DNA of 64,000 bases from Escherichia coli (GCF_003018235.1 NZ_CP027437.1); one strand, 5' to 3'. Counted from the stretch's first letter, positions 16,346 to 52,826 are shown. Translations and numbers: made by a program. The notes: generated by a model not told the origin, from the letters alone.

Positions 16346-16383
16346 GGTGTTGTGTCCGTTAGGTGCGGTTAATCAAATTTTTG

Positions 16384-16420
16384 CCGGATGCGGCGTGAAC
16401 GTCTTATCCGGCCTACAACG
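16384..16420. repeat. REP element
   Basis: gccggatgcggcgtgaacgtcttatccggcctac matches the REP consensus. Confidence 0.7.
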
Positions 16421-20968: not shown

Positions 20969-21040
20969 AAGAACACCTGAGCCTGCCATTGGCAGGCTCT
21001 GACTGATGACAAAGTCTAAAAATGTGCCCGGCCAGTCCCC

Positions 21041-21190
21041 TCGCCCCTCCGGGGAGAGGGTTAGGGTGAGGGGAACAGACCAGCAAAGTGCGCTTTGTTT
21101 ATGCCAGATGCGACGCTGACGCGTCTTATCTGGCCTACAAAGGGCTAACGTGCAGGTTTTGTAGGTCTGATAGCGTAGCGCCTCAGGTAC
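21041..21190. repeat. Composite extragenic repeat: GC-rich boxC-like palindrome followed by two inverted REP copies (BIME)
   Basis: cccctcgcccctccggggagagggttagggtgagggg, then gccagatgcgacgctgacgcgtcttatctggcctac and an inverted REP-like copy. The core CCCTCACCCTAACCCTCTCC is shared with 52261-52282. Confidence 0.65.
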
Positions 21191-21217
21191 CAGCATTAGC
21201 AATGCGCTGTAATTTTT

Positions 21218-32139: not shown

Positions 32140-32158
32140 TAGACAGGAGACAGTCACA

Positions 32159-33265
32159 ATGAATAAAACAATAACGGCGCTTGCTATCATAATGGCTTCA
32201 TTTGCCGCAAACGCGTCTGTATTACCGGAAACTCCTGTGCCATTTAAAAGTGGTACCGGAGCAATTGATAACGACACTGTCTACATTGGTTTAGGTAGCG
32301 CAGGTACAGCATGGTACAAGCTGGATACACAGGCCAAAGATAAAAAATGGACAGCGTTAGCTGCATTCCCTGGTGGGCCGAGAGATCAAGCAACCTCTGC
32401 ATTTATTGATGGTAATCTGTATGTGTTTGGCGGCATTGGCAAAAACAGCGAGGGCTTGACTCAGGTATTTAATGACGTACACAAATACAACCCCAAAACC
32501 AATAGCTGGGTTAAATTGATGTCGCACGCGCCGATGGGCATGGCGGGCCATGTGACTTTTGTACACAACGGCAAGGCTTATGTTACTGGCGGTGTTAACC
32601 AGAATATCTTCAATGGCTATTTTGAAGATCTCAACGAGGCTGGAAAAGATTCAACCGCTATAGATAAAATCAACGCCCACTATTTTGACAAAAAAGCAGA
32701 AGATTATTTCTTCAATAAGTTTCTGTTGTCTTTTGATCCCTCAACACAGCAATGGAGTTACGCTGGCGAATCTCCCTGGTACGGAACGGCTGGTGCGGCG
32801 GTTGTGAATAAAGGTGATAAAACCTGGCTTATTAATGGCGAAGCCAAACCAGGATTGCGAACGGATGCCGTATTTGAACTTGATTTCACCGGTAATAATT
32901 TAAAATGGAATAAGCTTGCTCCCGTCTCATCACCAGATGGCGTCGCTGGCGGTTTTGCAGGCATGAGCAATGACTCACTGATATTTGCCGGAGGGGCCGG
33001 ATTCAAAGGGTCACGGGAAAATTACCAAAACGGTAAGAACTATGCGCATGAAGGCCTGAAAAAATCATATAGCACTGATATTCATCTTTGGCATAACGGG
33101 AAATGGGATAAATCTGGTGAATTATCGCAAGGTCGGGCCTACGGAGTATCATTGCCCTGGAATAATAGTTTATTAATTATTGGCGGTGAAACTGCAGGCG
33201 GCAAAGCGGTGACGGATTCAGTTTTAATTTCTGTGAAGGATAATAAAGTCACAGTACAAAACTAA
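32159..33265 (+). CDS. nanM: N-acetylneuraminate mutarotase (Kelch-repeat beta-propeller)
   Basis: 368 aa from MNKTITALAIIMASFAANA, with repeated Kelch-like G(G)xxY motifs. Confidence 0.85.
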   Translation: MNKTITALAIIMASFAANASVLPETPVPFKSGTGAIDNDTVYIGLGSAGTAWYKLDTQAKDKKWTALAAFPGGPRDQATSAFIDGNLYVFGGIGKNSEGLTQVFNDVHKYNPKTNSWVKLMSHAPMGMAGHVTFVHNGKAYVTGGVNQNIFNGYFEDLNEAGKDSTAIDKINAHYFDKKAEDYFFNKFLLSFDPSTQQWSYAGESPWYGTAGAAVVNKGDKTWLINGEAKPGLRTDAVFELDFTGNNLKWNKLAPVSSPDGVAGGFAGMSNDSLIFAGGAGFKGSRENYQNGKNYAHEGLKKSYSTDIHLWHNGKWDKSGELSQGRAYGVSLPWNNSLLIIGGETAGGKAVTDSVLISVKDNKVTVQN

Positions 33266-33329
33266 CGCTTCAGGGTCCCAGTAAAGGGGCCCTGCTATCA
33301 ATTTGTCATTTGTATTACGCGAAAATTAT

Positions 33330-34310
33330 ATGAACGCAATAATATCGCCCGATTATTACTATGTTCTTACCGTTGCTGGTCAGTCTAATGCCATGGCGTA
33401 TGGCGAAGGACTGCCATTACCGGACAGGGAAGATGCGCCTCATCCCAGAATTAAACAATTAGCGAGATTTGCGCATACGCATCCCGGAGGCCCGTCATGT
33501 CACTTTAACGACATTATTCCACTGACTCACTGCCCACACGATGTTCAGGATATGCAGGGTTATCACCATCCTCTGGCAACGAATCATCAAACACAGTACG
33601 GCACCGTTGGCCAGGCACTGCATATTGCACGGAAATTACTGCCCTTTATTCCTGATAACGCAGGGGTTCTCATCGTTCCGTGTTGCCGTGGCGGATCGGC
33701 TTTTACCGCGGGCAGCGAAGGGAAATATTCAGAACGGCACGGAGCCAGCCATGATGCTTGTCGTTGGGGAACGGATACTCCGCTATACCAGGATTTAGTC
33801 AGCAGAACGCGAGCCGCACTGGCAAAAAATCCGCAGAACAAATTCCTCGGCGTATGCTGGATGCAAGGCGAATTTGACTTAATGACCAGTGACTACGCGT
33901 CACACCCTCAACACTTTAATCATATGGTTGAAGCCTTTCGTAGGGAGCTAAAACAATACCATTCTCAGCTTAATAATATTACTGACGCACCGTGGTTTTG
34001 CGGCGATACCACCTGGTACTGGAAAGAAAATTTCCCTCATGCGTATGAAGCTATTTATGGCAATTATCAAAATAATGTTTTAGCCAATATTATTTTCGTC
34101 GACTTCCAGCAACAAGGTGCAAGAGGACTGACGAACGCGCCTGATGAAGATCCAGACGATTTAAGCACGGGATATTACGGTTCAGCGTACCGGTCACCGG
34201 AGAACTGGACGACGGCACTGCGAAGCAGTCATTTCAGCGCGGCAGCCCGTCGGGGGATTATTTCTGACAGGTTTGTAGAAGCAATTTTGCAGTTTTGGCG
34301 CGAAAGGTGA
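33330..34310 (+). CDS. nanS: 9-O-acetyl-N-acetylneuraminate esterase
   Basis: 326 aa from MNAIISPDYYYVLTVAGQSNAMAYG (SGNH-like GQSN motif). Confidence 0.8.
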   Translation: MNAIISPDYYYVLTVAGQSNAMAYGEGLPLPDREDAPHPRIKQLARFAHTHPGGPSCHFNDIIPLTHCPHDVQDMQGYHHPLATNHQTQYGTVGQALHIARKLLPFIPDNAGVLIVPCCRGGSAFTAGSEGKYSERHGASHDACRWGTDTPLYQDLVSRTRAALAKNPQNKFLGVCWMQGEFDLMTSDYASHPQHFNHMVEAFRRELKQYHSQLNNITDAPWFCGDTTWYWKENFPHAYEAIYGNYQNNVLANIIFVDFQQQGARGLTNAPDEDPDDLSTGYYGSAYRSPENWTTALRSSHFSAAARRGIISDRFVEAILQFWRER

Positions 34311-34317
34311 GCGTTCA

Positions 34318-34518
34318 TTAATTTGATTTATTTGCATCCATTAGCGCTTTTAACTGCTCCGGCGTAAACGGTGGTTTGCGTCGGTGCAACATCGCATGGC
34401 AATTAGGGCACACAGGAAGCAAATCATTAACTGGATCCAGCTGGTAATCCTCTTTAATGGCTGAAAGCGGCACCAGGTGATGCACATTAAGCAATTTCAG
34501 AACCGCATGCTCATACAT
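34318..34518 (-). pseudogene. HNH-motif remnant ORF (66 aa), probably the C-terminal fragment of a degraded gene
   Basis: CPNCHAMLH HNH-like motif. Short ORF directly downstream of the 202-aa ORF on the same strand. Confidence 0.4.
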
Positions 34519-34577
34519 ATTTCCCCCTAAGTTTGCTCACTGCCTTTAATTTATGTCACAGGCAATGTAATTCACCT

Positions 34578-34649
34578 GAAGCTCATCTTGAATCTGTCCT
34601 TCTACTTAGTCATTACCCTACTGGCACAACCGACCTCAAGATGAGCTTC
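34578..34649. repeat. Perfect 14-bp inverted repeat GAAGCTCATCTTGA / TCAAGATGAGCTTC separated by 44 bp
   Basis: Direct reading of the sequence. Lies between the 202-aa ORF stop and the HNH remnant. Confidence 0.7.
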
Positions 34650-34655
34650 TTACTT

Positions 34656-35264
34656 TTAACGATGTATCAGAACAATCTTGCGCCGGGAGAATAGCGTTTC
34701 CGCAGACAGCTGGAATTTATATTCCGCGGCCTTCAGCTTTCGCGATTTAAGCATTTTCATCGTGATACCCCTTATTTTCCCTGACTCAACCTGTCTCTTG
34801 ATTTCGCCGGTGCTCAGCATGAGCTGCTTTTGCAAAATCGACAGCAGGCTGACCTGAAACGAACGGGAAATCCTGACGCTAACCTTGACCCATTTGCCGG
34901 GAGAAAGGCTGGCTAACCACTGCTCCTGAATGCGAAAATCAGGCCGACCCGATAGCTCTGCGTTGTTCCGCTTCAGCATCGCGATATCACAGGAAAAATG
35001 TTGAACCGTGGCTGCATCGTTGCTCATCAGCCGGTTATGAAGTTCGCGGTCAATTTTGCTGACGTGCAGGCGCGAAAATAGGGAGATATTCCAGGTGTAA
35101 TCACAGTGTGTGCATTTATAGATACTCCACACGTCCAGCACCTTCTTTTGCGAATTAATCCGAAATGCACCTGATGGCGTGAAGTCCCGTTTAATGTTGC
35201 ATGAAGGGCATCGCTTCGCAATGCGCTGATACCCCACGGGCGTGACGGTCCATGTAACTTTCAT
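34656..35264 (-). CDS. Hypothetical Cys-rich (zinc-finger-like) protein
   Basis: 202-aa ORF with CPSCN...CTHCDYTW motifs. No confident family assignment. Confidence 0.45.
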   Translation of the reverse strand: MKVTWTVTPVGYQRIAKRCPSCNIKRDFTPSGAFRINSQKKVLDVWSIYKCTHCDYTWNISLFSRLHVSKIDRELHNRLMSNDAATVQHFSCDIAMLKRNNAELSGRPDFRIQEQWLASLSPGKWVKVSVRISRSFQVSLLSILQKQLMLSTGEIKRQVESGKIRGITMKMLKSRKLKAAEYKFQLSAETLFSRRKIVLIHR

Positions 35265-35559
35265 AACCTACCTTTTTTAACCCATACAAAACCGGATCCG
35301 TACTGAACGGACCATGGATGTTTATGTATGAAAAATATTTAAGAGATATTTTTCAGAGGGTTAAAAAAAGATTTCCAACTATGCAATCCTGTCGGTGAGC
35401 AAAGAGATATAGCGAGACTATCAAAACGGCAATTATTGGGTATATGAGTTCAATCAATATTCATGATGGTTATGGCTTGTTCTATTGATCTGACACATTA
35501 AACACGGCGCATTAATTTTGTATGTTTTATGAACAACCCAACAACAAAAGGAGCGCGAT

Positions 35560-35811
35560 ATGACACAGCACGAACGGTTTTGTCAGGCCTGCGGAATGCC
35601 GATGTCCGCACCTGATGCGCAGGGGAGTAGCGATAAATACTGTGCATACTGCAGCGATAGCAACGGCAATCTTAAACCCTGGGAAGAGGCGGTATCAGGC
35701 TTGGCCAGCTTCCTTGATTCCTGGCAAAAAGTCGGTCCAGAAGAAGCACAGAAGCGTGCAAAACGTTATCTGACGGCAATGCCTGCCTGGGCTCATAAAG
35801 CGGACGAGTGA
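35560..35811 (+). CDS. Small zinc-ribbon protein (hypothetical)
   Basis: 83-aa ORF with CQACGMP...CAYCSD (CxxC-N-CxxC). Confidence 0.45.
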   Translation: MTQHERFCQACGMPMSAPDAQGSSDKYCAYCSDSNGNLKPWEEAVSGLASFLDSWQKVGPEEAQKRAKRYLTAMPAWAHKADE

Positions 35812-35875
35812 ATAACAAAGTCAGGGTGATTTAGGCAGTCTATCTTCACTCCGCTGATTCCATTAAGGAGAGCCG

Positions 35876-36268
35876 ATGTTTTCTCACATTATGCTTGGAA
35901 CCAACAACCTGCCACGCGCCATTGCATTCTACGATCCGTTGATGGATATGCTGGGGTATCCCCGCGGCGGCAGGAAGAGGAGATCGCATGGTGGGGCGTT
36001 TTCAACGGTAATAACACTACGGCACTGGGTATCAGTAGGCCATTTGATAAACAGGTTGCCACGACCCGAAATGGAGTGATGGTCGCCCTGATTGCGCGTT
36101 CTGCCGAACACATCCAGCAAGTTTCATGTGCTAGCTTTAAATCACGGTGGCACTGACGAGGGAGCACCTGGCCAGCGTCCGCATTACGGCGAAGGGTTCT
36201 ACAGCGCTTACGTCAGAGACACCGATGGCAACAAGCTGGCTTACGTTTATTACACCGCACAATCCTGA
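35876..36268 (+). pseudogene. VOC/glyoxalase-family gene disrupted by frameshifts
   Basis: The N-terminal part MFSHIMLGTNNLPRAIAFYDPLMDMLGYPR is in one frame. The middle (EEEIAWWGVFNGNNTTALGISRPFDKQVATTRNGVMVALIARSAEHIQQV) and C-terminal (HVLALNHGGTDEGAPGQRPHYGEGFYSAYVRDTDGNKLAYVYYTAQS) parts are recovered only by shifting frame. Confidence 0.6.
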
Positions 36269-36512
36269 GAACGATAAAGCGGGGGCCTCAGCGCCCCCAC
36301 CTGAAACTAAACCGATCCCGCAGATGTCAATGAGCGTTGAACGAGTTGATAAATGCCGAGATGTCTGACTGTTTTTACGCCAGAACTCCATGGTGTGACA
36401 ACCATACACATACTCCCTTCTTGACACCTTTAAACCATTTAACCGCATGCCTCTGTCTGCCCTGCAGGGACGGCTGATGCCTGTGTGTTGTCTGGCGGTA
36501 AGGAACAATACT

Positions 36513-36674
36513 ATGTACGCAAAATCCTTTATCGCTCTCGACGGGAATGGTCGTCTGACCGGTGCCCGTACTGCGCAGACCGCCCCTTACGATCGTTATA
36601 CCTGCCACCTCTGCGGTAGCGTGCTGCAATACCATCCTGAATACATCACCGAACGCCCGTGCTTTGAACAGTAA
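36513..36674 (+). CDS. Small hypothetical protein (53 aa)
   Basis: ATG preceded by AGGA. Contains CHLCGS. No family recognised. Confidence 0.3.
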   Translation: MYAKSFIALDGNGRLTGARTAQTAPYDRYTCHLCGSVLQYHPEYITERPCFEQ

Positions 36675-37266
36675 CCAACACACTGACAGAGGGCGGCGAA
36701 AATGCTTTATGCAAATCTTGATGCAAAGGCAGCCAGACGAATTCGTAAGTTACGCTTTTACGTGGCAGATACTCAAAGCAGACTGGCATTGTAGCGACGA
36801 TTGCCACGGTGAACGCTATTGTATGGCATGTAGTACCTGAGACTTCAGCCGCCCAGTAGATATAGCATCATGAAAAAACTGAAATGCTTTCTTGCCAACA
36901 ACTCACTGAGCTAGTATGCCTCCACCGATGTAACAATTAGAGCAAGCGTCAAAGTGCGAAACTGCCCTCACGTAGCTGCAAGTTAACACCAGGAAATCCT
37001 GGTTCAAACACGACCAGCTCTATGTTAGCGGCAAGCAATCGTTGAACTAAACGCATATGCAGCCGGAGATGAAAGTTAGGAAAAAAGCAGAGGCTGATAA
37101 GAATTATGCACGTTGAGCTGGGATCGTAATACCCCACTTAAAATGTACAAGGGGAGTAGTCTAATGATGTTAAATACGAACCTTCAGTATTGTTCATTCA
37201 CCAATTTTCCCATATTCTCTCATCATTAATATTCTCTGCCGAATTTTATAGGGCTAACTCGCTGAA

Positions 37267-37473
37267 ATGAATGACAAAGCTTTAACCTTGAAAGATGTGG
37301 TGGCTTACTTAAAGTTGGCAGAAAAAACAGCGTATAGGTTGACTAGCGAAGGCAAATTGCCGGGATTTAAGGTTGAAGGCTCATGACGCTTCAAACGAGA
37401 GGATTTAGATATGTGGATTGAAGGTCAGAAGACTCAAAGCTACCCGAGTATCACAAAATCCAATCGTGGTTGA
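37267..37473 (+). pseudogene. AlpA/excisionase-type helix-turn-helix regulator gene interrupted by an in-frame TGA
   Basis: MNDKALTLKDVVAYLKLAEKTAYRLTSEGKLPGFKVEGS-stop-RFKREDLDMWIEGQ. The stop at 37384-37386 sits where this family has a conserved Trp (TGG). Confidence 0.6.
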
Positions 37474-37666
37474 TCAAGTGGATAAACATGAAAAGTCGGT
37501 AGCCCTCAAAGGCCACTTGCCACATGCAGTGAAGCAAGCCGTTGTGCAAGCTCTACTGAAAGAAGGTGATATCGCCCGAACGTTGCTCAAGGATCCACAA
37601 GTTATGGCAAGTTATGTTGAGCTGATTTTCGACATGATGAAGCAGAATAAAAATATGAATATCTAA
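37418..37666 (+). CDS. Hypothetical small ORF (TTG start), overlapping the HTH remnant out of frame
   Basis: 82-aa ORF from the track. Non-ATG start and no recognisable motifs. Confidence 0.25.
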   Translation: MKVRRLKATRVSQNPIVVDQVDKHEKSVALKGHLPHAVKQAVVQALLKEGDIARTLLKDPQVMASYVELIFDMMKQNKNMNI

Positions 37667-37708
37667 AAGATTTTGGGCTATCTATTACGTTTTAAAATGA
37701 GATAAATA

Positions 37709-40246
37709 ATGATAAATGACCATGAAGAACTAGAACTTGCTAAAGCTCAGGCAAAAGAAATATGGAAGATCCTTGATTATGTTCGAGGAGCATCACCTAT
37801 ATCTAATTATCGCTCATTAGCGTATTCAATCTTCTTCGTACGCTATCTTCAATCCAATACAGGTCAGCATTTTGAGGCAGAAAGGTTCGACTCTTTTAAT
37901 GTCATCGCCCAGTATTCCTACGATCTTGTAAACTATGCCGTTCAACTTGGATTGATTCATAGCGACGTATCTAAATTCTTAATTTATTATTTAGAAAACA
38001 CACTCCGTTCATTTGTCAATATTGATGAGTCTTTTGTTCGTTATGCAATTAGAGATGGTCTACTCAATAAAACCCCTGCAATAGCGTCGCTTTCTTTATC
38101 AGAACTGGATTTACTTTTTGCCGAGAATGAAGGTAAGTCAGGAGGTGAGTTTTATACCCCTAGAGACGTCAACTTATTGGTTAAAATATTAGGATTGAGT
38201 TATCAACCAAAGTCAATATGTGACCCATTTGCAGGTGCTGGAAACACAGCATTTCCTTTTGCCAATACTGGTATTGAAAAAGTTAGGATTGATACTCAAG
38301 AAATTAATAGAGATGCTTACTTTAAACTAGTAATAAGTAGAGTCATCAGGAAAATAGAAGGTCGAGACTATTTCGGCGATTCCCTATCACAACCATTATA
38401 TCAAGAAAATAAATATGATCTGATAGTTTCTTTCCCACCTTTTGGCATGAAAATTCCTAAAGCCACTCGAAATAATATTTACTATAAAACAAGTAATAAG
38501 TGGCTGGATATTACTGAAATCTTGCCAGAAAGTAGAAGTGATTGGTTTATAACATTATCAATGCTTCCAGCCCTTTCTGAGGGGGGTAAGATACTAGTAG
38601 GTATGTCACTTGGGGCTTTGACAAGAGCAGGCTCTGAGGCAAAGGTTCGTGAGTATTTAGTCTCTCGCGGAATTATCGAACAAGTAATTCTTTTACCTAA
38701 AAATATTTATTACTCTACGGCTATCTCAACTGTACTTCTTGTCCTCAACTCAGGAACAAGTAACATAAATAACAGAAGTATTAAATTTGTAGATGCTTCA
38801 CTGTTTTACGAGCCTGCCCGTGGTCGAAACACCCTCACAACAAAAAATATAAATGAGATCGTAGAGGCTTGTCATAAAGATGGCCGATTTAGTATTAGTT
38901 CATCTCATACCCAAATAGCAAACAGAGACTTTAATTTAGATCCGTCTCTTTATGTACGTAAAGATCTCAAAATCAGTGAGGTTTCTTTAAAAAATTTTAG
39001 AGGATACTCTGACTTTAAAGTTTCGATACATCCTTCTTTAAATGTATTGGTTGGTGAGAACGGCGTCGGGAAAACTTCGATATTAGAAGCATTAGCATGT
39101 GGCCTTGGTCCTTTCCTTACTGCTATGCCTGATGCTAAAGGAAAACTGATAAAAAAATCAGATATCCATATAAGTTCAAAAGGAATCGCAAATTATGCTC
39201 GAATATCGATTGAAACAACATCAAGTTTAAGTTGGGATCTTGTGGCAAAGGGGGTTGATGTTTCCGAGCCCCCTAAGATAGGAACATCAGCATTAACTAG
39301 CTACGCTACTCATCTTGTAGATAGTCAGTCTGAATATCCACTCATTGCTTATTATGGGACTAACCGTGCTCTTACTTCTACCAGTTCTAAAGTTGCAATA
39401 AATCCATTCGAGAAAGAAAATCGTGGGGAAGGTTATGACTTTGCTTTAGATGCTAAAGTTAACTACGGCATCTTAAAGAACTGGTTTTCAAAAATAGAGG
39501 TTGATGAGCTTCGAAAACGTGATGAACTAAAAGACCATAAATTCATTCATCCGGCTAAGAGACTTGTTTCAGAGGCTGTTTACCAGATTGTTGATCGAGC
39601 TACATGCTTGGAGTTCGACAAAAATAGTAACGATGTTATGGTTCATTGGAAAAATGAGCAGGGAGAGTGCGTAAAGCTTACATTGGAACAACTAAGTGAA
39701 GGGTATAGAAATATGGTATCCCTGACCATTGACCTAGTGAGGCGTGCTTATTTACTTAATCCTACCAAACCGAAACCGCTAACAGTTAATGGGATCGTTT
39801 TAATTGATGAAATTGAACTTCACTTGCACCCTAGATGGCAGCAAAAGATTTTAAATGATCTTACTAAGCTGTTTAAGAATATTCAGTTTATTGTCACGAC
39901 ACATAGTCCTCAAGTCTTAACAACAATCAAAGCCGATTGTATCCGTATTGTTTCCGTCAATGCTAACGAAGCAAAATTAGTGACAGGAACTACTACTTAC
40001 GGTTCTGAAAGCTCAAGAATGTTGGAAGATGTTTTAGGTGGTAACAATCGCGCCCAACATCTTGATATTGTTAAAAAACTAAACCGTTATACAGAGTTAG
40101 TAGAGGCCGACAAATGGGATACCGATGAGGCATTAGAACTCAAAAAAGAGTTATATAAATGGGGTGGTCAGACAGAAGACGAGCTTCAAAAATTAGAAAC
40201 TGATATTCGAATTCGCGAGTTCGAGCGTGGCAATGAAAAAGATTAA
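37709..40246 (+). CDS. Fusion protein: N-terminal HsdM-like N6-adenine DNA methyltransferase domain plus C-terminal ABC/AAA_21-type ATPase domain (PtuA-like)
   Basis: 845-aa ORF. Methyltransferase motifs GGEFYTPRDV, ICDPFAGAGNTAF (motif I) and DLIVSFPPFG (motif IV region). ATPase motifs: Walker A VLVGENGVGKTS, signature-like LSEGYRNMVSL, Walker B VLIDEIELHLHP, H-loop FIVTTHSP. Confidence 0.75.
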   Translation: MINDHEELELAKAQAKEIWKILDYVRGASPISNYRSLAYSIFFVRYLQSNTGQHFEAERFDSFNVIAQYSYDLVNYAVQLGLIHSDVSKFLIYYLENTLRSFVNIDESFVRYAIRDGLLNKTPAIASLSLSELDLLFAENEGKSGGEFYTPRDVNLLVKILGLSYQPKSICDPFAGAGNTAFPFANTGIEKVRIDTQEINRDAYFKLVISRVIRKIEGRDYFGDSLSQPLYQENKYDLIVSFPPFGMKIPKATRNNIYYKTSNKWLDITEILPESRSDWFITLSMLPALSEGGKILVGMSLGALTRAGSEAKVREYLVSRGIIEQVILLPKNIYYSTAISTVLLVLNSGTSNINNRSIKFVDASLFYEPARGRNTLTTKNINEIVEACHKDGRFSISSSHTQIANRDFNLDPSLYVRKDLKISEVSLKNFRGYSDFKVSIHPSLNVLVGENGVGKTSILEALACGLGPFLTAMPDAKGKLIKKSDIHISSKGIANYARISIETTSSLSWDLVAKGVDVSEPPKIGTSALTSYATHLVDSQSEYPLIAYYGTNRALTSTSSKVAINPFEKENRGEGYDFALDAKVNYGILKNWFSKIEVDELRKRDELKDHKFIHPAKRLVSEAVYQIVDRATCLEFDKNSNDVMVHWKNEQGECVKLTLEQLSEGYRNMVSLTIDLVRRAYLLNPTKPKPLTVNGIVLIDEIELHLHPRWQQKILNDLTKLFKNIQFIVTTHSPQVLTTIKADCIRIVSVNANEAKLVTGTTTYGSESSRMLEDVLGGNNRAQHLDIVKKLNRYTELVEADKWDTDEALELKKELYKWGGQTEDELQKLETDIRIREFERGNEKD

Positions 40247-41021
40247 TAAGCTAGATGAGCCAAATCGGCTTGGTGTGTTCAAGGCTACTCATCCTAATGC
40301 TTTGTGGGAGAGGGATAAAAACTCAATTGAAGAGGCTTTCCGTTGTTGCATTGCCAGATATCAAGAAACTCTACAACAATTACGTACGGACCAAGGTAAT
40401 TTATGTGCATATTGTGAACAGGATTTAATGTCTGGAACTAATGGGGCATTAGATGACTGCCGTATTGAGCATTTTCATCCGAAATCTAAACGTGAACAGG
40501 GAGAACCTAATTGGGCTTTGGAATGGAGCAATTTGTTAGTTGTTTGCTGTGGCGGAAATCAAAGTAAAGTTGTTAATCCTGGGCAAAGATTTGATGCTGA
40601 TCCCAAAAATTACTCTTGCGATGTACCAAAGAGTGACAAAATTTTAGATACCATTATATTAAATCCACTTAATTTACCTGAATTAAATATCTGGAAGTTT
40701 CATCGTTCTTCGGGGCAAATTTCCGTAAATGAAGATTCCTGTTTAGAATTTGGTATAAGTGTTGAAATGGCACACCAAACAATTAAAGAATTGAATTTAA
40801 ATTCCCCTCGATTAATTAGATTTCGAAAGGCTATTCTAAATAATCTCAACATTTTAATAACAGAAAGGCTGAAGAAGGGACAAACGGTAGAGCAAGCTGT
40901 TAGATTTATTGCCATATCACTCTTTAGAAAAAATGGAGCAGGTGATTGGCCCTCTTTTTTTAGTGCAACACGATATTATTTAGGTCAGCAGGCTGAGCTT
41001 GTTTTAGCCCAACCTATTTAA
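40233..41021 (+). CDS. HNH endonuclease (PtuB/TIGR02646-like), translationally coupled to the upstream fusion gene
   Basis: 262 aa from MKKINKLDEP. HNH motifs CAYCE, CRIEHFHPKS, NLLVVCCGGN. Its start overlaps the 3' end of the upstream gene by 14 nt. Confidence 0.7.
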   Translation: MKKINKLDEPNRLGVFKATHPNALWERDKNSIEEAFRCCIARYQETLQQLRTDQGNLCAYCEQDLMSGTNGALDDCRIEHFHPKSKREQGEPNWALEWSNLLVVCCGGNQSKVVNPGQRFDADPKNYSCDVPKSDKILDTIILNPLNLPELNIWKFHRSSGQISVNEDSCLEFGISVEMAHQTIKELNLNSPRLIRFRKAILNNLNILITERLKKGQTVEQAVRFIAISLFRKNGAGDWPSFFSATRYYLGQQAELVLAQPI

Positions 41022-41040
41022 CATACTTTCAACTAGTTAG

Positions 41041-41063
41041 AGAGGCTGCTTTTGGCAGCCTCT
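41041..41063. terminator. Hairpin between convergent genes (AGAGGCTGC-TTTTG-GCAGCCTCT), likely bidirectional terminator
   Basis: Perfect 9-bp stem with a 5-nt loop in the 60-bp gap between the 3' ends of the convergent genes. Confidence 0.55.
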
Positions 41064-41081
41064 TGCAGAGTGCAGAATCGA

Positions 41082-42515
41082 CTACAGGGGCGATGCTAGC
41101 TCAGAGAACCAAGCGTGAACTGATCTGTAAAATGTGCTGATTGACCAAAACTCACTGCATGCAGCAACTAACAGAATGACCACTAAGAGGATCACTACAG
41201 TAGAAGTCATTCTTTCCACACGGCAGTATGATCCCATCGCATCTTTTACAGGTTGTCTAGCCAGTTCCTGATAATCCAGCTCATCCAGAAATCCGTATAA
41301 TTTAGTTCTCCAGGTGGTTCTAACTCTTTCAAGTAATGAAATTGTTTGCCTATTAATATAGACAGACATTCCATAGGAAATAACTATATAAACCGCGATA
41401 GCACAAAAAACCAAAGCGTAAATATTTTGCAAACCAACTGATTTTACTGCATCCAGACTGTAGCGAATAACCAAGACACTAATTACAAGAGCCATATCTT
41501 TCCATAAGGAAGAGGACAAATCTCGGGATTGCTGAATGATCTTTTGTGTATCTTCAGCCAGCGTTTTCCGCAAATCACCCAAGGATTTCATAGTATCTTT
41601 ACCACCAGTCCTGATATGGGCCTTATACATTAACCGTGCAGACTCCAAAGCTGATGAGAGTCGAAGCATCACTCCCTCACAAAAGTTCAGGTCTGAAGGC
41701 CACTCTCTAGCCAGCTCGCTGGACAAAAACGTATGTTTCAGCTCAGTTTCATTCCCCTCTAGAAAAATCCACTTTGCCGCTTCCTGGATAATATCAAAAG
41801 CAGGTAACGCTGCCGTCTCATCGCCGAATGCTATTTTTCTGGGAGGCTTTCCCGCAAGCCCCACCATCATTTCGTCAGCAAAAAAAAGTTCATTTGCAAA
41901 ACATTTCAGCAACTCTCGGCATCCTAGCAATTTCCATATCTTGATTGCTTCATCAGTCTTCTCACTACAAGTTTCAAGTATCCAAGGGGCAATGGCATCT
42001 GGAGGAAGAAAAGTTGTTGAATAACATTTGATGATACTTTTTGTTACTGAAGGCTTAGTGATAGCTGTTGCATCACCAGCACTCACCGGCTGTATCTCCT
42101 TCCATGGATGCACATACCAACTTATTGTCTGAAAGCCTTCAGTAATAAACAGCCCATAAATATGTTTGTACCGACAGAGTTTGCTATCTTGAAGTAAAAA
42201 AGTGCGCCATCCTTCTAAGGTAAAAAGCCTCAGTATCCCCGGAATTTCATTATAAGTGATGGTAATGTAGTGCTTCTGCCCTGGGACCCCCTCTCTCGGA
42301 TGAATAACATCTCTGCTCTCATCGATAAAAACGATCTTGAGATCTTCCGCATGTACATCCACTATTTCTCCCCATAAATCAAGGGATTCACTATCCATTG
42401 TGGCGGAAATAAAAAGCTTATGGATAGACACCTGCTGGTCCTCTGTGATCACAAGGTCAGATAAATGTCGTGAGTGGCATATAGCCTTACCGATTTTTTC
42501 CAATATCGATATCAT
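41082..42515 (-). CDS. Hypothetical protein with two C-terminal transmembrane helices (membrane-anchored), second gene of a two-gene cassette
   Basis: 477-aa ORF. Hydrophobic stretches LVISVLVIRYSL...IYALVFCAIAVYIVISYGMSVYI and TSTVVILLVVILLVAACSEFW. No recognisable catalytic motif. Confidence 0.5.
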   Translation of the reverse strand: MISILEKIGKAICHSRHLSDLVITEDQQVSIHKLFISATMDSESLDLWGEIVDVHAEDLKIVFIDESRDVIHPREGVPGQKHYITITYNEIPGILRLFTLEGWRTFLLQDSKLCRYKHIYGLFITEGFQTISWYVHPWKEIQPVSAGDATAITKPSVTKSIIKCYSTTFLPPDAIAPWILETCSEKTDEAIKIWKLLGCRELLKCFANELFFADEMMVGLAGKPPRKIAFGDETAALPAFDIIQEAAKWIFLEGNETELKHTFLSSELAREWPSDLNFCEGVMLRLSSALESARLMYKAHIRTGGKDTMKSLGDLRKTLAEDTQKIIQQSRDLSSSLWKDMALVISVLVIRYSLDAVKSVGLQNIYALVFCAIAVYIVISYGMSVYINRQTISLLERVRTTWRTKLYGFLDELDYQELARQPVKDAMGSYCRVERMTSTVVILLVVILLVAACSEFWSISTFYRSVHAWFSELASPL

Positions 42516-43548
42516 CTGTTACCAATCCTGCAGTCACAATTACAATTCGTTTTCGCCCGTCTTCCATATTTTCTACTTCTGGTGCATTGTCTTCATCGTA
42601 GATAATGATTACATCTTCCAATGTTTCCAGTTTTCTCTTCCGGGGCTTCTGAATGTTATCGGGAATGATGCGGAAAGATTCACCTGAAATTCCTAAATCC
42701 TTTATTTTACGAAAAAAATACTTAACCAGAGGGTGTTCTTCCTCCAAAGGACCAAAAATCTGGGTCAACAATGGCAGTGCTTCATCAGTATTAAAATCCT
42801 GTTCGCCATGGCGTAAAGTTTCATAAATTTTGTTTACTCCGCTGCGCTTGATCTCTTCAGGTAGTAAGTTTCGATGCTTTTTATATACATCTTTTAATAC
42901 AGTAACTAGCTTATCGCTGAGCTGAGTTGGGTCATTGACGCGCTTAACCTGTAGAAATCGTTCAAAATAGACAGAGATGTTAGTACGTTTGCTGCGATCT
43001 CGTACGACAACTAATCCGCCCGGCAAATCTTCATTCAGCCGTACCAGTGCGATTTTCTGCATGGCTTCGGCTTTTTTAACGAAACTTTCGCGAAAGCGTT
43101 CGAGTTTAGGTACCTGAAACTCATCTCCTTCAACATCCAGCACATAACGGACTACATCTTCATTGTCATACTTAATCAACGCATACAGTTTCTCATCGTT
43201 GAGTGTATGAAGTTCAAAAAGGAAAAAAACGCCCATACTGGCATTCTTGGTATGGTGGTGAGACTGAAAATCGCTTGCCAATAAGGAGGATTGCTCAGTA
43301 AAGCAGCCGATATCGGTGTCTGCATGTTCCCTGATGATCCTCAGGATTCGCTCTGTATTTGACAACTCCTTAAAATGAAACATATTGCCACTAACTGCAG
43401 ATTTGATACGTTCCAGAAAGAAATCAACATGCTCCGGAGGGGAAATTTCGCTGAGTAAAACAGGGACTTCCAACTCACCGCCAACCACATGAAAAATCAT
43501 CCTTTTTATTGATAATGCATTGATTTCTTCATCCGTTAAAAAACTCAT
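42487..43548 (-). CDS. Hypothetical cytoplasmic protein (353 aa), first gene of the two-gene cassette; weak NdpA/YejK-like resemblance at most
   Basis: ATG start confirmed. Overlaps the downstream ORF by 29 nt. Acidic C-terminus. No confident domain assignment. Confidence 0.5.
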   Translation of the reverse strand: MSFLTDEEINALSIKRMIFHVVGGELEVPVLLSEISPPEHVDFFLERIKSAVSGNMFHFKELSNTERILRIIREHADTDIGCFTEQSSLLASDFQSHHHTKNASMGVFFLFELHTLNDEKLYALIKYDNEDVVRYVLDVEGDEFQVPKLERFRESFVKKAEAMQKIALVRLNEDLPGGLVVVRDRSKRTNISVYFERFLQVKRVNDPTQLSDKLVTVLKDVYKKHRNLLPEEIKRSGVNKIYETLRHGEQDFNTDEALPLLTQIFGPLEEEHPLVKYFFRKIKDLGISGESFRIIPDNIQKPRKRKLETLEDVIIIYDEDNAPEVENMEDGRKRIVIVTAGLVTDDIDIGKNR

Positions 43549-43744
43549 TTTTATTTCTCAATATAGTGTTTATATTTACTACCGTGAGCCATCTTACCTA
43601 AGCGTAGAACGTGGCGGAAAACACGATAACATTATTGCATAGCTTACGGCGTAACTTATCCTCGCCCCAGACAGAATAAACGTCAAAATAAAATAATGAA
43701 AATATGATCGAGACAGCATTAGCTGCCCCGCTTTCTTAGACTTT

Positions 43745-44998
43745 TTACATTATTAGGGCAAAATCAAACGGACTCACCCCCTTCTCCCGATTCGCATCCA
43801 GATAATTTGCCCACCACTGCAGCATCAACCTACGCTCCCCAAGATGTTCCGCCTTATGGATGTATGCCGCCCGCACAGAGCTACGCTCCTGATGGCTCAT
43901 CTGCCGCTCCACTGCATTCCTCGACCACAATCCTGATTCAATAAGTGAACTACAGGCCATCGTCCTGAAACCATGCCCACAGACTTCCGTTTTGGTGTCA
44001 TAGCCCATAACTCGCAAAGCCTTGTTCACCGTATTCTCACTCATCGGCTTATGCGGATCGTGATCGCCCACAAAAATCAGCTCTCGATTTCCATTCATGC
44101 TTTTGATCTTTTCCAAAATAGCTAAGGCCTGCCGCGATAAGGGTACAAGATGGGGAGTTCGCATCTTCGAACCACGCTGAGAATGTTTAACACCGTCCAA
44201 CGGTTCACGCTCACCGGGGATCGTCCACATGGCCGTTTCAAAATCCACTTCTGACCAACGGGCAAAGCGCAGTTCGCTTGAACGGATGAAAACTAACAAA
44301 GTGAGTTCGACAGCCAGTCGAGTTAACGGCCTGCCGGAGTAATGATCAATGCGGTGAAGTAATTCAGGTATGCGGTTAAGCTCCAGAGCCGCACGATGCT
44401 GTCTTTTAGCAGTAGCAACCGCACCGGTAATCTCTTGCGCGGGGTTGTAGTCGATTAAGCCGCTCTGAACGGCAAAGCGCATAATCGCGGTAGTTCGCTG
44501 CTGTAAACGGGCGGCGACTTCAAGACGTCCGGATGACTCCACCGCTTTAATGGGTACAAGAAGATCCCGAGTCTTAAGCTCTGCAATGTTCCGCTTACCG
44601 ATAGCAGCAAAGAGATTATCTTCTAGGCTTTTCAATACACGAGCACTATGCGATGCAGACCACTTCTGATTACTGGCATGCCAGTCTCTGACGACCACTT
44701 CAAACGTTATCGCCTCTTGCTCCTGTTCTACCTTAACCGCTTTCTTGTTTTCACTGGGATCGACGCCGTTCGCTAAAAGCTTACGCGCTTCGTCTCGCCG
44801 CGATCGAGCATCAGCTAACGAAACTTCAGGATACTTCCCTAGCGCCAGCATCTTCTCTTTACCACCGAAACGATAACGAAGCCGCCAGTATTTGGAGCCG
44901 TTAGGGTGAACCAGCAAAACCATGCCTTCACCATCAGTAAGTTTATAGGCTTTTGCTTCAGGCTTTGCCGAACGAACCTTCACATCACTCAGAGCCAT
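43745..44998 (-). CDS. int: P4-family tyrosine integrase
   Basis: 417 aa from MALSDVKVRSAKPEAKAYKLTDGEGMVLLVHPNGSKYWRLRYRFGGKEKMLALGKYP (P4-type integrase N-terminus). Catalytic region HGFRTMA...Y. Lies directly beside the tRNA-Leu 3' end. Confidence 0.9.
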   Translation of the reverse strand: MALSDVKVRSAKPEAKAYKLTDGEGMVLLVHPNGSKYWRLRYRFGGKEKMLALGKYPEVSLADARSRRDEARKLLANGVDPSENKKAVKVEQEQEAITFEVVVRDWHASNQKWSASHSARVLKSLEDNLFAAIGKRNIAELKTRDLLVPIKAVESSGRLEVAARLQQRTTAIMRFAVQSGLIDYNPAQEITGAVATAKRQHRAALELNRIPELLHRIDHYSGRPLTRLAVELTLLVFIRSSELRFARWSEVDFETAMWTIPGEREPLDGVKHSQRGSKMRTPHLVPLSRQALAILEKIKSMNGNRELIFVGDHDPHKPMSENTVNKALRVMGYDTKTEVCGHGFRTMACSSLIESGLWSRNAVERQMSHQERSSVRAAYIHKAEHLGERRLMLQWWANYLDANREKGVSPFDFALIM

Positions 44999-45196
44999 GA
45001 TGAATATCCTTTCAAGGGTTCTGTGTGGGTACAAACATTATCGAACCGGGATATACCCGCAGTTGTACCCGCATCAGTAAGTTGATGTAGATTGAATCAG
45101 GTTGACTTAGGTTGAGTGAAAAAGCGAGGAAAGCCTTGCGGATACTGGATTTCAGGCATAAAAAAAGACCTCAGTTGAGGTCTATTTACATACTTA

Positions 45197-45281
45197 TGGT
45201 GCCGAAGGCCGGACTCGAACCGGCACGTATTTCTACGGTTGATTTTGAATCAACTGCGTCTACCGATTTCGCCACTTCGGC
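45197..45281 (-). tRNA. leuX: tRNA-Leu (anticodon CAA)
   Basis: The minus-strand sequence reads GCCGAAGTGGCGAAATCGGTAGACGCAGTTGATTCAAAATCAACCGTAGAAATACGTGCCGGTTCGAGTCCGGCCTTCGGCACCA (85 nt), with a CAA anticodon loop and a CCA end. Confidence 0.9.
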
Positions 45282-48128: not shown

Positions 48129-48140
48129 GTCAGGTGCGAT

Positions 48141-48200
48141 TTGTCTTTGCCTGATGCGACGCTGGCGCGCTTTATCATGCCTAAACTACTGCAATATATT
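48141..48200. repeat. REP element plus conserved tail TGCAATATATTGAATTT
   Basis: gcctgatgcgacgctggcgcgctttatcatgcctaa followed by ctgcaatatattgaattt, the same tail as at 9380-9397. Confidence 0.7.
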
Positions 48201-48288
48201 GAATTTTCATGATTTTTCAGGCATGAACGAAGCACACTTTGCTAACAATAATAAAGGGAGCTTTCGCTCCCTTTATTCGTTCATCAGG

Positions 48289-50734: not shown

Positions 50735-52249
<1,515 letters not shown>

Positions 52250-52260
52250 GTTTGCGTTTT

Positions 52261-52294
52261 ACCCTCACCCTAACCCTCTCCCTAAGGGAGAGGG
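52261..52294. repeat. GC-rich palindromic extragenic repeat (boxC-like): CCCTCACCCTAACCCTCTCCCtaaGGGAGAGGG
   Basis: 9-bp stem CCCTCTCCC / GGGAGAGGG with a 3-nt loop. The 20-bp core is identical to the inverted copy at 21041-21085. Confidence 0.65.
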
Positions 52295-52382
52295 AACCGA
52301 TCGAGCGCAATAGAAATTCATTGCTCATCTTTCAGGGTGAGGAATGCAGCAATATTTAAATCCACCACAAGAAGCCCCATAT

Positions 52383-52826
52383 ATGAAAAACGCAACGTTC
52401 TACCTTCTGGACAATGACACCACCGTCGATGGCTTAAGCGCCGTTGAGCAGTTGGTGTGTGAAATTGCCGCAGAACGTTGGCGCAGCGGTAAGCGCGTAC
52501 TCATCGCCTGTGAAGATGAAAAGCAGGCTTACCGGCTGGATGAAGCCCTGTGGGCGCGTCCGGCAGAAAGCTTTGTTCCGCATAATTTAGCGGGAGAAGG
52601 ACCGCGCGGCGGTGCGCCGGTGGAGATCGCCTGGCCGCAAAAGCGCAGCAGCAGCCCGCGCGATATATTGATTAGTCTGCGAACAAGCTTTGCAGATTTT
52701 GCCACCGCTTTCACAGAAGTGGTAGACTTCGTTCCTTATGAAGATTCTCTGAAACAACTGGCGCGCGAACGCTATAAAGCCTACCGCGTGGCTGGTTTCA
52801 ACCTGAATACGGCAACCTGGAAATAA
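52383..52826 (+). CDS. holC: DNA polymerase III chi subunit
   Basis: 147 aa from [12 protein letters not shown]. The track ORF starts 13 codons upstream. Confidence 0.85.

What the first reader, a model, noticed from the sequence alone, without database searches (positions are those of the whole stretch)
52261..52294. Shared GC-rich palindromic repeat family in two intergenic regions, and REP elements with a common 17-bp tail
CCCTCACCCTAACCCTCTCC occurs after pepA and, inverted, after gntP (21041-21085). Two REP copies (9341-9397 and 48141-48200) are each followed by TGCAATATATTGAATTT. These are interspersed extragenic repeats that may act as terminators or insulators.
Basis: seen in the sequence. 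Interest (0 to 1): 0.2.

Follow-up and report, generated by a model that had tools for sequence, protein, structure and literature searches.

The report
Known E. coli intergenic repeats: BoxC, BIME-1
The finding is real but ordinary: it joins two unrelated, already published families of E. coli intergenic repeats, the G-rich BoxC element and the REP/BIME-1 element whose conserved linker is reported to carry an IHF-binding site.

Summary
Both observations are correct and far beyond chance. They concern two different repeat families, both already described.

**GC-rich element (BoxC).** This is BoxC, also published as PIT, TMECO and the HPG1 G-quadruplex motif.
- The gntP-fimH copy is identical to TMECO no. 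23 of E. coli K-12.
- The pepA-holC copy is identical to a TMECO listed for E. coli HS.
- These two copies are the only canonical G4 motifs in the 64-kb window.
- Neither looks like an intrinsic terminator. The literature reports no promoter or terminator activity for this family.

**17-mer (BIME-1 linker).** TGCAATATATTGAATTT is the core of the conserved L linker of BIME-1 (RIP/RIB), which is reported to carry an IHF site.
- In 47 of 51 enterobacterial occurrences it lies between two inverted REPs.
- Both window copies have lost the second REP by internal deletion.
- Both copies lie between convergent genes.

**Added by this work.**
- The pepA-holC spacer has two main forms in E. coli: BoxC in about 26% of complete genomes and a REP/BIME form in about 74%.
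- Three outgroup contigs carry BIMEs there, so the BoxC form is probably derived.
- At four loci, BoxC presence or absence comes with replacement of neighbouring spacer sequence, not a clean insertion.

Verdict: already known, low interest.

The parts
52259..52311 (-). Complete BoxC unit, type A with a perfect stem, in the pepA-holC spacer. Read on the minus strand it is: 5' flank GCGCTCGATCGGTT, C-block CCCTCTCCC, loop TTA, GGGAGAGGG, TTA, GGGTGAGGG. On the plus strand the blocks are 52262-52270 CCCTCACCC, 52274-52282 CCCTCTCCC and 52286-52294 GGGAGAGGG.
   Evidence: Sequence. The 34-mer is identical to TMECO no. 80 of E. coli HS, which lies between holC and pepA. The flank consensus comes from 11 type A copies. 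It is one of only two canonical G4 motifs in the window. The 9-bp hairpin folds at -17.3 kcal/mol.
52250..52346 (.). The stretch of the pepA-holC spacer that is replaced between alleles. It carries BoxC here and a REP pair (BIME) in K-12 and most E. coli.
   Evidence: K-12 sequence. BoxC allele in 1404 of 5426 genomes; BIME allele in 4018. Spans of 701, about 727, about 825 and about 921 nt occur among strains. Three outgroup contigs carry BIMEs here.
52334..52342 (+). AGGGTGAGG, complementary to 52263-52271. It closes a long-range predicted fold over the whole insert. It is probably specific to this locus and not part of the repeat unit.
   Evidence: The fold of 52250-52343 has z = -5.1. The 9-mer is absent after the near-identical copy in E. 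coli E69 (L211) and after other copies.
21020..21079 (+). BoxC unit, type A with one mismatched position, in the gntP-fimH spacer. The core 21038-21073 reads CCCTCGCCCCTCCGGGGAGAGGGTTAGGGTGAGGGG; the 5' flank GTGCCCGGCCAGT is at 21024-21036.
   Evidence: Sequence. The core is identical to TMECO no. 23 of K-12 and is HPG1 motif no. 52 (fimH-gntP) of Kaplan et al.. It is identical in K-12. About half of E. coli genomes lack it.
21082..21191 (+). BIME directly next to the BoxC. It consists of the flank motif CAGCAAAGTGCGCTTTGTT, a z2-like REP at 21103-21138, a linker, and an inverted y-like REP at 21161-21191.
   Evidence: There is a sub-threshold Rfam match to naRNA4, which I recall is REP-derived. 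The right-hand REP is replaced in K-12 and O157.
9335..9439 (+). Truncated BIME-1 (RIP/RIB) between iatD and kptA. It consists of the left flank GACTGATAACAAACGCTACATT, a y-like REP at 9357-9384, the L-linker core 17-mer at 9393-9409, and a remnant of the z1 REP (TTTTTGTA...CCGGCATGAACG, 9415-9439) with the hairpin deleted.
   Evidence: and the alignment to 24 enterobacterial copies. The kptA stop codon at 9408-9410 overlaps the 17-mer, and the remnant encodes the last ~10 residues of KptA.
48133..48255 (+). Truncated, atypical BIME-1 between yjgR and lptG. It consists of the flank GTGCGATTTGTCTTT, a z2-like REP at 48149-48183, the L-linker core 17-mer at 48190-48206, no z1 REP (deleted), and the retained right outer flank GGCATGAACGAAGCACACTTTGCTAACAAT.
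   Evidence: The same truncated structure is present in K-12.
16383..16416 (+). Solitary z1-like REP (GCCGGATGCGGCGTGAACGTCTTATCCGGCCTAC) between uxuR and uxuB. It is a further member of the REP family in the window.

Best explanation
The finding combines two unrelated, previously described families of enterobacterial dispersed repeats.

**1. The GC-rich element is BoxC** (also called PIT, TMECO, and the HPG1 G-quadruplex motif).
- Structure: a unit of about 55 bp made of a conserved flank (GNGCNCGAWCGGT), a C-rich block, a short loop and two G-rich blocks (GGGAGAGGG-TTA-GGGTGAGGG).
- Behaviour as a single strand: the C-block pairs with a G-block to form a hairpin. Published in vitro work shows the same strand can instead form an intrastrand purine triplex or a G-quadruplex.
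- Most likely role (inferred): it is not a terminator or promoter. It is a structure-prone, largely selfish or neutral repeat. Its main consequence is to make the spacers it occupies unstable, so they are replaced between strains.

**2. The 17-mer is the core of the conserved L linker of BIME-1** (RIP/RIB).
- The canonical element is y-REP, L, inverted z1-REP, with inverted outer flanks, located at the 3' ends of transcription units. L is reported to carry an IHF-binding site.
- Both window copies kept one REP, L and the outer flank, but lost the z1 hairpin by internal deletion.
- Most likely role (inferred from the family, not tested here): the remaining REP hairpin in the transcript protects the upstream mRNA from 3' exonucleases, and L, if still bound by IHF, bends the DNA between the convergent genes.
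For: **BoxC identity**
- The gntP-fimH core is identical to TMECO no. 23 in Table 1 of PMC4666352 and corresponds to the fimH-gntP HPG1 entry of PMC5100583.
- The pepA-holC core is identical to the TMECO listed for E. coli HS at 4520554-4520587, which lies between holC and pepA.
- It has the same three-block layout and flank as the K-12 copy upstream of fabI and 10 other type A copies.
- It is dispersed: other copies were detected in 5078 of 5426 genomes, with a median of 3 places at a strict E-value. The literature gives 23 copies in K-12.
- The two copies are the only canonical G4 motifs in the window.

**BoxC and spacer instability**
- The pepA-holC spacer has two main forms.
- Spacer replacement was also seen at gntP-fimH, tauD-hemB and adk-hemH.
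- This agrees with the main conclusion of PMC4666352.

**BIME-1 identity**
Fifty-two are in Escherichia, Pseudocitrobacter and E. coli-type contaminant contigs.
- My REP test scored 51 of these; L123 was missed because its REP has mismatches. Of the 51, 47 have REPs on both sides.
- The other 70 occurrences (including L123) showed no REP and are otherwise singletons in unrelated taxa.
- The alignment shows y-REP, L, z1-REP plus flanks, and shows the z1 deletion in both window copies.
- PMC3333891 states that BIME-1 consists of z1 and y REPs separated by a conserved long linker L that frequently carries an IHF site.
- Both copies lie between convergent genes.
Against: - Function was not tested for any of the four copies.
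- For BoxC, the in vivo DMS footprinting in PMC4666352 did not support stable triplex formation. The link to instability is a correlation.
- The match to the IHF core consensus (ATTCAATATATTG, 12 of 13 positions) is uninformative on its own. Matches of that quality occur 2.6 times per kb in the window.
- With one REP missing, it is not known whether IHF binding or any REP function survives.
- The copy at 9335-9439 is not entirely extragenic, because it overlaps the 3' end of kptA.
- The REP type labels (y, z1, z2) rest on my memory of the consensus sequences plus the pattern.
Confidence: 0.92

Rival explanations
1. The GC-rich element is an intrinsic terminator or an insulator for pepA and gntP.
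For: It lies directly after the stop codons of pepA (12 nt away) and gntP (about 70 nt away). It contains a strong GC hairpin of -17.3 kcal/mol.
Against: - No terminator-like site at either BoxC copy; the only one in the two scans is gntP's own hairpin at 20979-20999.
- The two copies face opposite ways relative to the upstream gene.
- gntP has its own hairpin at 20979-20999.
- PMC4666352 reports that PIT elements showed no promoter or terminator activity and found no bias in orientation or distance.
- About half of E. coli genomes lack the element at gntP-fimH, and about three quarters lack it at pepA-holC.
Confidence: 0.05
2. BoxC is a G-quadruplex/hairpin/duplex switch that regulates neighbouring genes, as Kaplan et al. 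2016 proposed. Here the affected genes would be holC-valS.
For: - GGG-AGA-GGG-TTA-GGG-TGA-GGG is a canonical G4 motif.
- The two copies are the only such motifs in 64 kb.
- 23 of the 52 such motifs in K-12 belong to this family, and circular dichroism supports both hairpin and G4 forms in vitro.
- The pepA-holC copy lies about 90 nt upstream of the holC start codon.
Against: - No consistent position, strand or gene class was found.
- The element is absent from the same spacers in many strains, so any regulation is dispensable.
- The perfect 9-bp hairpin competes with G4 formation.
- There is no in vivo evidence.
Confidence: 0.12
3. BoxC is a miniature mobile element that inserts into spacers, often beside or in place of REP/BIME sequences, and creates target-site duplications.
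For: - It has a discrete unit of about 55 bp with a conserved flank.
- Presence or absence varies between strains at every locus examined.
- At gntP-fimH it sits inside a BIME flank motif, with similar ...CAAAGT motifs on both sides.
- All four combinations of BoxC present/absent and the neighbouring REP variant exist.
- It replaced a probably ancestral BIME at pepA-holC.
- The exact 21-mer with a matching C-block occurs in at least 120 IMG/VR contigs.
Against: - No clean filled versus empty site and no convincing target duplication was found at any of four loci. At gntP-fimH, 81 nt are replaced by 12 unrelated nt. At tauD-hemB, adk-hemH and pepA-holC the whole spacer differs.
- No terminal inverted repeats.
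- No associated transposase is known.
- The motifs flanking the gntP copy are also explained as ordinary BIME flank sequence.
Confidence: 0.12
4. The shared 17-mer is a chance match or a locus-specific signal such as a promoter, not part of a repeat family.
For: - It is AT-rich, and shuffles gave two or more matches with up to 3 mismatches in 7 of 100 trials.
- Weak promoter-like hexamers overlap it at 48172-48220.
- About 69 unrelated genomes hold single chance copies.
Against: - Both window matches are exact.
- Both lie in the same orientation and at the same spacing after a REP, and similarity continues beyond the 17-mer.
- There are 18 copies in the E. albertii type strain alone, and 47 of 51 scored enterobacterial copies lie between two REPs.
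Confidence: 0.01

Closest known systems
BoxC, also published as PIT (potential intrastrand triplex) element, TMECO (Holder et al. 2015, PMC4666352) and HPG1 G-quadruplex motif (Kaplan et al. 2016, PMC5100583)
   Same: Both window copies are sequence-identical to published members (K-12 no. 23; E. coli HS no. 80). They share the C-block, loop, GGGAGAGGG, TTA, GGGTGAGGG layout of type A, the intergenic position, dispersal across the genome, and strain-to-strain variability of the loci.
   Different: Nothing essential. The pepA-holC copy is absent from K-12, which has a BIME there. The conserved 13-nt 5' flank (GNGCNCGAWCGGT for type A, GGTTTTCT for type B) is not part of the 33-37-nt 'triplex motif' as published. 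It does fit the older description of BoxC as 56 bp.
BIME-1, also called RIP (repetitive IHF-binding palindrome) or RIB, of E. coli (described in Ton-Hoang et al. 2012, PMC3333891)
   Same: A REP hairpin followed by the conserved L linker, whose core is the 17-mer. The outer flank motifs are present. Each locus holds a single copy, at the 3' ends of convergent transcription units.
   Different: Both copies lack the z1 REP through internal deletion. The yjgR-lptG copy has a z2-like rather than a y-like REP, which would make it an 'atypical' or chimeric BIME. The iatD-kptA copy runs into the kptA coding region.
REP/PU elements and their RAYT (TnpA-REP) transposase system
   Same: The REPs here have the imperfect palindrome and the GTAG/CTAC tetranucleotide. 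Copy number and presence vary between strains at the same locus, as published.
   Different: BoxC has no REP-like sequence and no known associated transposase. No RAYT gene was looked for in the window.
Whalefall-1 RNA motif (Rfam RF01762)
   Same: The consensus has a CUCUCC/GGAGAG hairpin and a downstream AGGGUGAGG, as BoxC does.
   Different: The score is 19.7 bits against a gathering score of 37. The model has 24 nt between the hairpin and AGGGUGAGG, where BoxC has 3. No match reached gathering in 12 viral contigs rich in BoxC-like motifs. This is a resemblance only.

Membership tests
BoxC / PIT / TMECO / HPG1 | Three-block core: C-rich block CCCTC(T/G)CCC(C), a 3-5 nt loop, GGG(G)AGAGGG, then TTA (type A) or CCG/TCG (type B), then GGGTGAGGG(G) | tested here: met
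   Both copies are type A. 21038-21073 is identical to TMECO no. 23. 52261-52294, read on the minus strand, is identical to TMECO no. 80 of E. coli HS.
BoxC / PIT / TMECO / HPG1 | Intergenic location, with no fixed orientation towards neighbouring genes | tested here: met
   The copies lie in the gntP-fimH and pepA-holC spacers, in opposite orientations relative to the upstream gene.
BoxC / PIT / TMECO / HPG1 | Many dispersed copies per genome | tested here: met
   Other copies were found in 5078 of 5426 E. coli genomes, at 1-7 places each under a strict E-value. There are 13 copies with flanks in the loci fetched. The literature gives 23 copies in K-12 and 823 in 56 strains.
BoxC / PIT / TMECO / HPG1 | Unit of about 56 bp, that is, conserved sequence beyond the core | tested here: met
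   The 5' flank GNGCNCGAWCGGT is shared by 11 type A copies, including both window copies. The 56-bp length is quoted in PMC2267715.
BoxC / PIT / TMECO / HPG1 | Forms an intrastrand triplex or a G-quadruplex in vitro | not testable with these tools
   Only the Watson-Crick hairpin could be predicted. The sequence fits the canonical G4 pattern.
BIME-1 / RIP / RIB | Conserved long linker L between the REPs | tested here: met
   The 17-mer and its neighbouring bases align with the linker of 24 enterobacterial copies.
BIME-1 / RIP / RIB | One y REP and one z1 REP in inverse orientation on either side of L | tested here: not met
   The z1 REP is deleted in both copies, leaving only its ends. The left REP is y-like at 9357-9384 but z2-like at 48149-48183. 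These are truncated derivatives, not complete members.
BIME-1 / RIP / RIB | IHF binds the linker | not testable with these tools
   The core consensus WATCARNNNNTTR is matched at 12 of 13 positions, but such matches occur 2.6 times per kb. IHF binding is stated for the family in PMC3333891.
BIME-1 / RIP / RIB | [quoted passage not shown] | tested here: met
   The copies lie between iatD and kptA and between yjgR and lptG, which are both convergent gene pairs.
REP / PU | Imperfect palindrome of 30-40 nt with the conserved GTAG/CTAC tetranucleotide | tested here: met
   9357-9384, 16383-16416, 21103-21138, 21161-21191 and 48149-48183. Some copies are slightly degenerate (CCTAT at 9380-9384, TGCCTA at 48178-48183).
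Intrinsic (Rho-independent) terminator | GC-rich hairpin immediately followed by a T-run | tested here: not met
   No terminator-like site at either BoxC or at the two 17-mer loci. The only hits nearby are gntP's own hairpin and one inside kptA.

The most novel reading that the evidence does not exclude
BoxC and REP/BIME elements may compete for the same intergenic sites. BoxC-bearing spacers would then spread as alternative haplotypes, by recombination or by a mobilisation mechanism not yet known.

Three observations are consistent with this:
- At pepA-holC, a BIME that is probably ancestral across genera was displaced by BoxC in about a quarter of E. coli genomes.
- At gntP-fimH, BoxC sits inside a BIME flank.
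- All four combinations of the two linked polymorphisms at gntP-fimH exist.

If true, BoxC would be an active player in intergenic turnover rather than a passive structural oddity.
Probability: 0.15. Interest if true: 0.4.

Novelty: already known. Interest (0 to 1): 0.1.

Why it matters
It matters little for discovery. Both families have been described since the early 1990s, and both BoxC copies appear in published tables.

It is useful for annotation:
- These four loci should be labelled BoxC/TMECO or truncated BIME-1, not as terminators.
- The repeat content explains why these spacers differ between strains.
- It explains why gene callers extend holC to 160 aa.
- It explains why the KptA C-terminal tail is encoded by repeat-derived sequence.

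The pepA-holC spacer, with its BoxC and BIME forms, could serve as a natural allele pair. It would let someone test whether BoxC affects read-through into holC-valS.

Tried and rejected
1. **K-12 repeat annotation.** I looked for repeat_region annotation in NC_000913.3. None is present in this copy.
2. **Literature search for the 17-mer.** Full-text searches for it or its sub-strings found nothing. PMC413762 (Boccard and Prentki 1993) is not held.
3. **Target-site duplication at gntP-fimH.** This was rejected. Between identical anchors the filled allele has 81 nt and the empty allele 12 unrelated nt. The motifs on either side of BoxC match ordinary BIME flank sequence.
4. **Clean empty sites at tauD-hemB and adk-hemH.** The alternative alleles replace the whole spacer.
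5. **AGGGTGAGG at 52334-52342 as a terminal inverted repeat of an 80-bp element.** This is not supported. It is absent after other copies with the same core and flank, although the predicted fold is strong.
6. **Rfam.** Nothing reached gathering in the window apart from a tRNA and Ysr276. The whalefall-1 resemblance is sub-threshold and was not recovered in 12 viral loci.
7. **IHF consensus match as evidence.** It is too common to count.
8. **Extra conservation of the BoxC core relative to its spacer, window versus K-12.** The 8% divergence is concentrated in one replaced REP, so the comparison is uninformative.
9. **Outgroup state from loci already fetched.** None covered pepA-holC. It was obtained instead through HolC homologues.

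Full report
**1. Checking the observation**

The 20-mer CCCTCACCCTAACCCTCTCC occurs exactly twice in the window, at 52262-52281 (+) and 21053-21072 (-). None was expected in shuffled sequence, even with three mismatches allowed. The 17-mer TGCAATATATTGAATTT occurs exactly twice, at 9393-9409 and 48190-48206, both on the + strand. Each lies 6-8 nt after a REP hairpin.

The window is an E. coli chromosome segment, with at best 99% identity to complete genomes. The neighbouring genes are:
- iatD> <kptA
- gntP> <fimH
- yjgR> <lptG
- pepA> holC> valS>

. It turns out to concern two unrelated repeat families.

**2. The GC-rich element is BoxC**

On its G-rich strand the element reads: C-block, loop, GGGAGAGGG, TTA, GGGTGAGGG.

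A sequence upstream of fabI in K-12 is nearly identical to the gntP copy. From memory, BoxC was first described at the fabI (envM) locus.

A full-text search for the 21-mer found two papers on exactly this sequence:
- Holder et al. 2015 (PMC4666352) call it BoxC/PIT/TMECO. Their Table 1 lists 23 copies in K-12. No. 23 (4549883-4549848) has the 36-mer found at window 21038-21073.
- Kaplan et al. 2016 (PMC5100583) list the same fimH-gntP site as G-quadruplex motif HPG1 no. 52. They report that 23 of the 52 canonical G4 motifs in K-12 belong to this family.

In the window, the only two canonical G4 motifs on either strand are the two BoxC copies.

The pepA-holC copy is not in K-12. Its 34-mer occurs 12 times in Holder's supplementary table, for example in E. 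coli HS at 4520554-4520587. I confirmed that this position lies between holC and pepA. Both copies are therefore already catalogued.

**3. Extent of the BoxC unit**

I compared 13 E. coli copies. The repeat is longer than the published 33-37-nt 'triplex motif':
- Type A copies (TTA) share a 13-nt 5' flank, GNGCNCGAWCGGT.
- Type B copies (CCG) share a different flank, GGTTTTCT.

This gives a unit of about 53-56 nt, in line with the 56 bp quoted for BoxC in PMC2267715. The pepA-holC unit is 52259-52311.

A downstream AGGGTGAGG at 52334-52342 closes a strong predicted long-range fold (z = -5.1). It is not found after other copies, so I treat it as specific to this locus.

**4. What BoxC does**

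Neither copy has a hairpin followed by a T-run. The two copies face opposite ways relative to the upstream gene.

According to Holder et al.:
- earlier work on PIT elements found no promoter or terminator activity;
- there was no bias in orientation, distance or gene class;
- in vivo footprinting did not support a stable triplex.

Their positive result is that loci carrying the element are unusually variable between strains. My comparisons agree with this:

| Spacer | With BoxC | Alternative |
|---|---|---|
| pepA-holC | 1404 of 5426 genomes | K-12-like REP pair in 4018; spans of about 727, 825 and 921 nt imply 1-3 BIMEs |
| gntP-fimH | about half of genomes (2811) | 81 nt replaced by 12 unrelated nt |
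| tauD-hemB | 3601 genomes | whole spacer differs |
| adk-hemH | 2913 genomes | whole spacer differs |

Three outgroup enterobacterial contigs (pepA 85% identical) all carry a two-REP BIME, built from their own REP types, in the pepA-holC spacer. This suggests that REP occupancy is ancestral and the BoxC form derived. I did not identify the organisms behind these three contigs.

No locus gave a clean insertion junction or a convincing target duplication. This argues against simple transposition.

At gntP-fimH, all four combinations of BoxC present/absent and of the neighbouring right-hand REP variant exist. This implies either recombination within about 100 bp or recurrent gain and loss.

My best reading is that BoxC is a structure-prone, largely selfish or neutral repeat that marks, and probably promotes, spacer turnover. 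The published data and my comparisons show the correlation. The causal step is inferred.

**5. The 17-mer is the core of the BIME-1 linker**

They fall into two groups.

- **Enterobacterial group (52 occurrences).**
  - E. albertii: 18
  - Pseudocitrobacter: 17
  - two E. coli genomes: 13
  - E. whittamii: 2
  - contigs that look like E. coli contamination: 2
  - My REP test scored 51 of these and missed L123, whose REP has mismatches. Of the 51, 47 have REPs on both sides, 3 on the left only, and 1 is cut off by a contig end.
- **Remaining group.** The remaining occurrences showed no REP. They are singletons in unrelated, mostly AT-rich genomes, as expected by chance.

The alignment gives the canonical element: left flank (GACTGATGACAAACGCAAAAT), y-REP, about 8 nt, the 17-mer, about 10 nt, inverted z1-REP, right flank (TGAACAAAGCGCACTTTGTCAGCAATCTGA).

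Ton-Hoang et al. 2012 (PMC3333891) describe BIME-1 as z1 and y REPs separated by a well conserved long linker L that frequently carries an IHF site. They summarise the roles of REPs as terminators, mRNA stabilisers, supercoil insulators, and binding sites for IHF, Pol I and gyrase.

The 17-mer matches the IHF core consensus at 12 of 13 positions. Such matches are common (2.6 per kb), so they add no evidence.

**6. Both window copies are truncated**

In the alignment, both copies keep the left REP, L and the beginning and end of the z1 region, but lack the z1 hairpin:
- At 9415-9439: TTTTTGTA[deletion]CCCCAGCCGGCATGAACG.
- At 48207-48255: GATTTTTCA[deletion]GGCATGAACGAAGCACACTTTGCTAACAAT, so the right outer flank is retained.

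The yjgR-lptG copy has the same truncated form in K-12. Its REP is z2-like rather than y-like.

The iatD-kptA copy is not wholly extragenic. The kptA stop codon (9408-9410) overlaps the 17-mer. The last ten or so residues of KptA, beyond the end of its Pfam domain at residue 175 of 194, are encoded by the remnant.

Both copies lie between convergent genes. This fits the published location of RIB elements at the 3' ends of transcription units (title cited). Whether the truncated copies still bind IHF or stabilise mRNA was not tested.

**7. Verdict**

Its functional guess of terminator or insulator is not supported for BoxC and has only generic support for the REPs.

Everything central here is already known. 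The additions are modest:
- the frequencies of the pepA-holC alleles and their probable polarity;
- the flank that completes the BoxC unit;
- the truncated state of both BIME-1 copies;
- the lack of clean insertion junctions.

Noticed in passing
window 52250-52346 and the same spacer in 5426 E. coli genomes: The pepA-holC spacer is hypervariable. There is a BoxC form (span 701 nt in my query frame) and BIME forms of about 727, 825 and 921 nt. HS (BoxC) and K-12 (BIME), both commonly placed in phylogroup A (from memory), differ.
   Followed up: partly
window 52344-52385: The BoxC allele creates an in-frame ATG 39 nt upstream of the true holC start at 52383. A 160-aa HolC is called in many assemblies: the cluster P0001 has 653 member sequences, against 147 aa in RefSeq.
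   Followed up: partly
window 9408-9440: The kptA stop codon overlaps the BIME-1 linker 17-mer. The last ~10 residues of KptA (...[11 protein letters not shown]) are encoded by the remnant of the deleted z1 REP, downstream of the end of the Pfam PTS_2-RNA domain.
   Followed up: partly
window 21139-21200, compared with K-12 (L262), EC5931 (L251) and O157 SS52 (L252): The right-hand inverted REP of the gntP-fimH BIME is intact in the window and in EC5931 but replaced in K-12 and O157. All four combinations with BoxC present or absent occur, only about 100 bp apart.
   Followed up: partly
L260 (E. coli 357900, tauD-hemB), alignment A2 columns 123-173: A 51-nt insertion lies directly 5' of the BoxC. 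It is bounded by GGAC(G/A)GTC direct repeats and contains a second copy of the BoxC 5' flank motif without a core.
   Followed up: no
IMG/VR loci L003-L122, e.g. L044 and L069: The exact 21-mer GGGAGAGGGTTAGGGTGAGGG, always preceded by a matching C-block, occurs in at least 120 viral contigs from very diverse samples. L044 has 6 BoxC-like motifs in 10 kb next to a phage tail-collar gene. Holder et al. reported no association with phages. Some hits may be host flanks of predicted prophages.
   Followed up: partly
L154 (Desulfosporosinus sp. OT, 262-bp contig) and L191 (contig of an uncultured Bacteroides MAG): Both contigs carry a typical Escherichia-type BIME-1 (y REP, L, z1 REP). They are probably contamination or mis-binning in those assemblies.
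   Followed up: no
window 52261-52296 (-): There is a sub-threshold Rfam match to the whalefall-1 RNA motif (19.7 bits against 37). The whalefall-1 consensus shares the CUCUCC/GGAGAG hairpin and a downstream AGGGUGAGG. No match reached gathering in 12 viral loci.
   Followed up: partly
window 51296-51490 (-): A full-length Rfam match to Ysr276 (Yersinia antisense sRNA, 185.8 bits) lies antisense inside pepA.
   Followed up: no
window 45200-45281 (-) and 30000-45000: A tRNA gene lies about 15 kb from the fim cluster. From memory, in K-12 the corresponding interval holds the much larger KpLE2 element next to leuX, so this strain seems to lack it or to carry something else.
   Followed up: no
window 1115-1412: A tandem array of nine 24-nt units lies inside a gene annotated as a pentapeptide-repeat protein.
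   Followed up: no
window 4047-9287: iatD (inverse autotransporter) is an intact 1746-aa ORF here. It is annotated as frameshifted in the closely related strain CFIAFB20140388.
   Followed up: no
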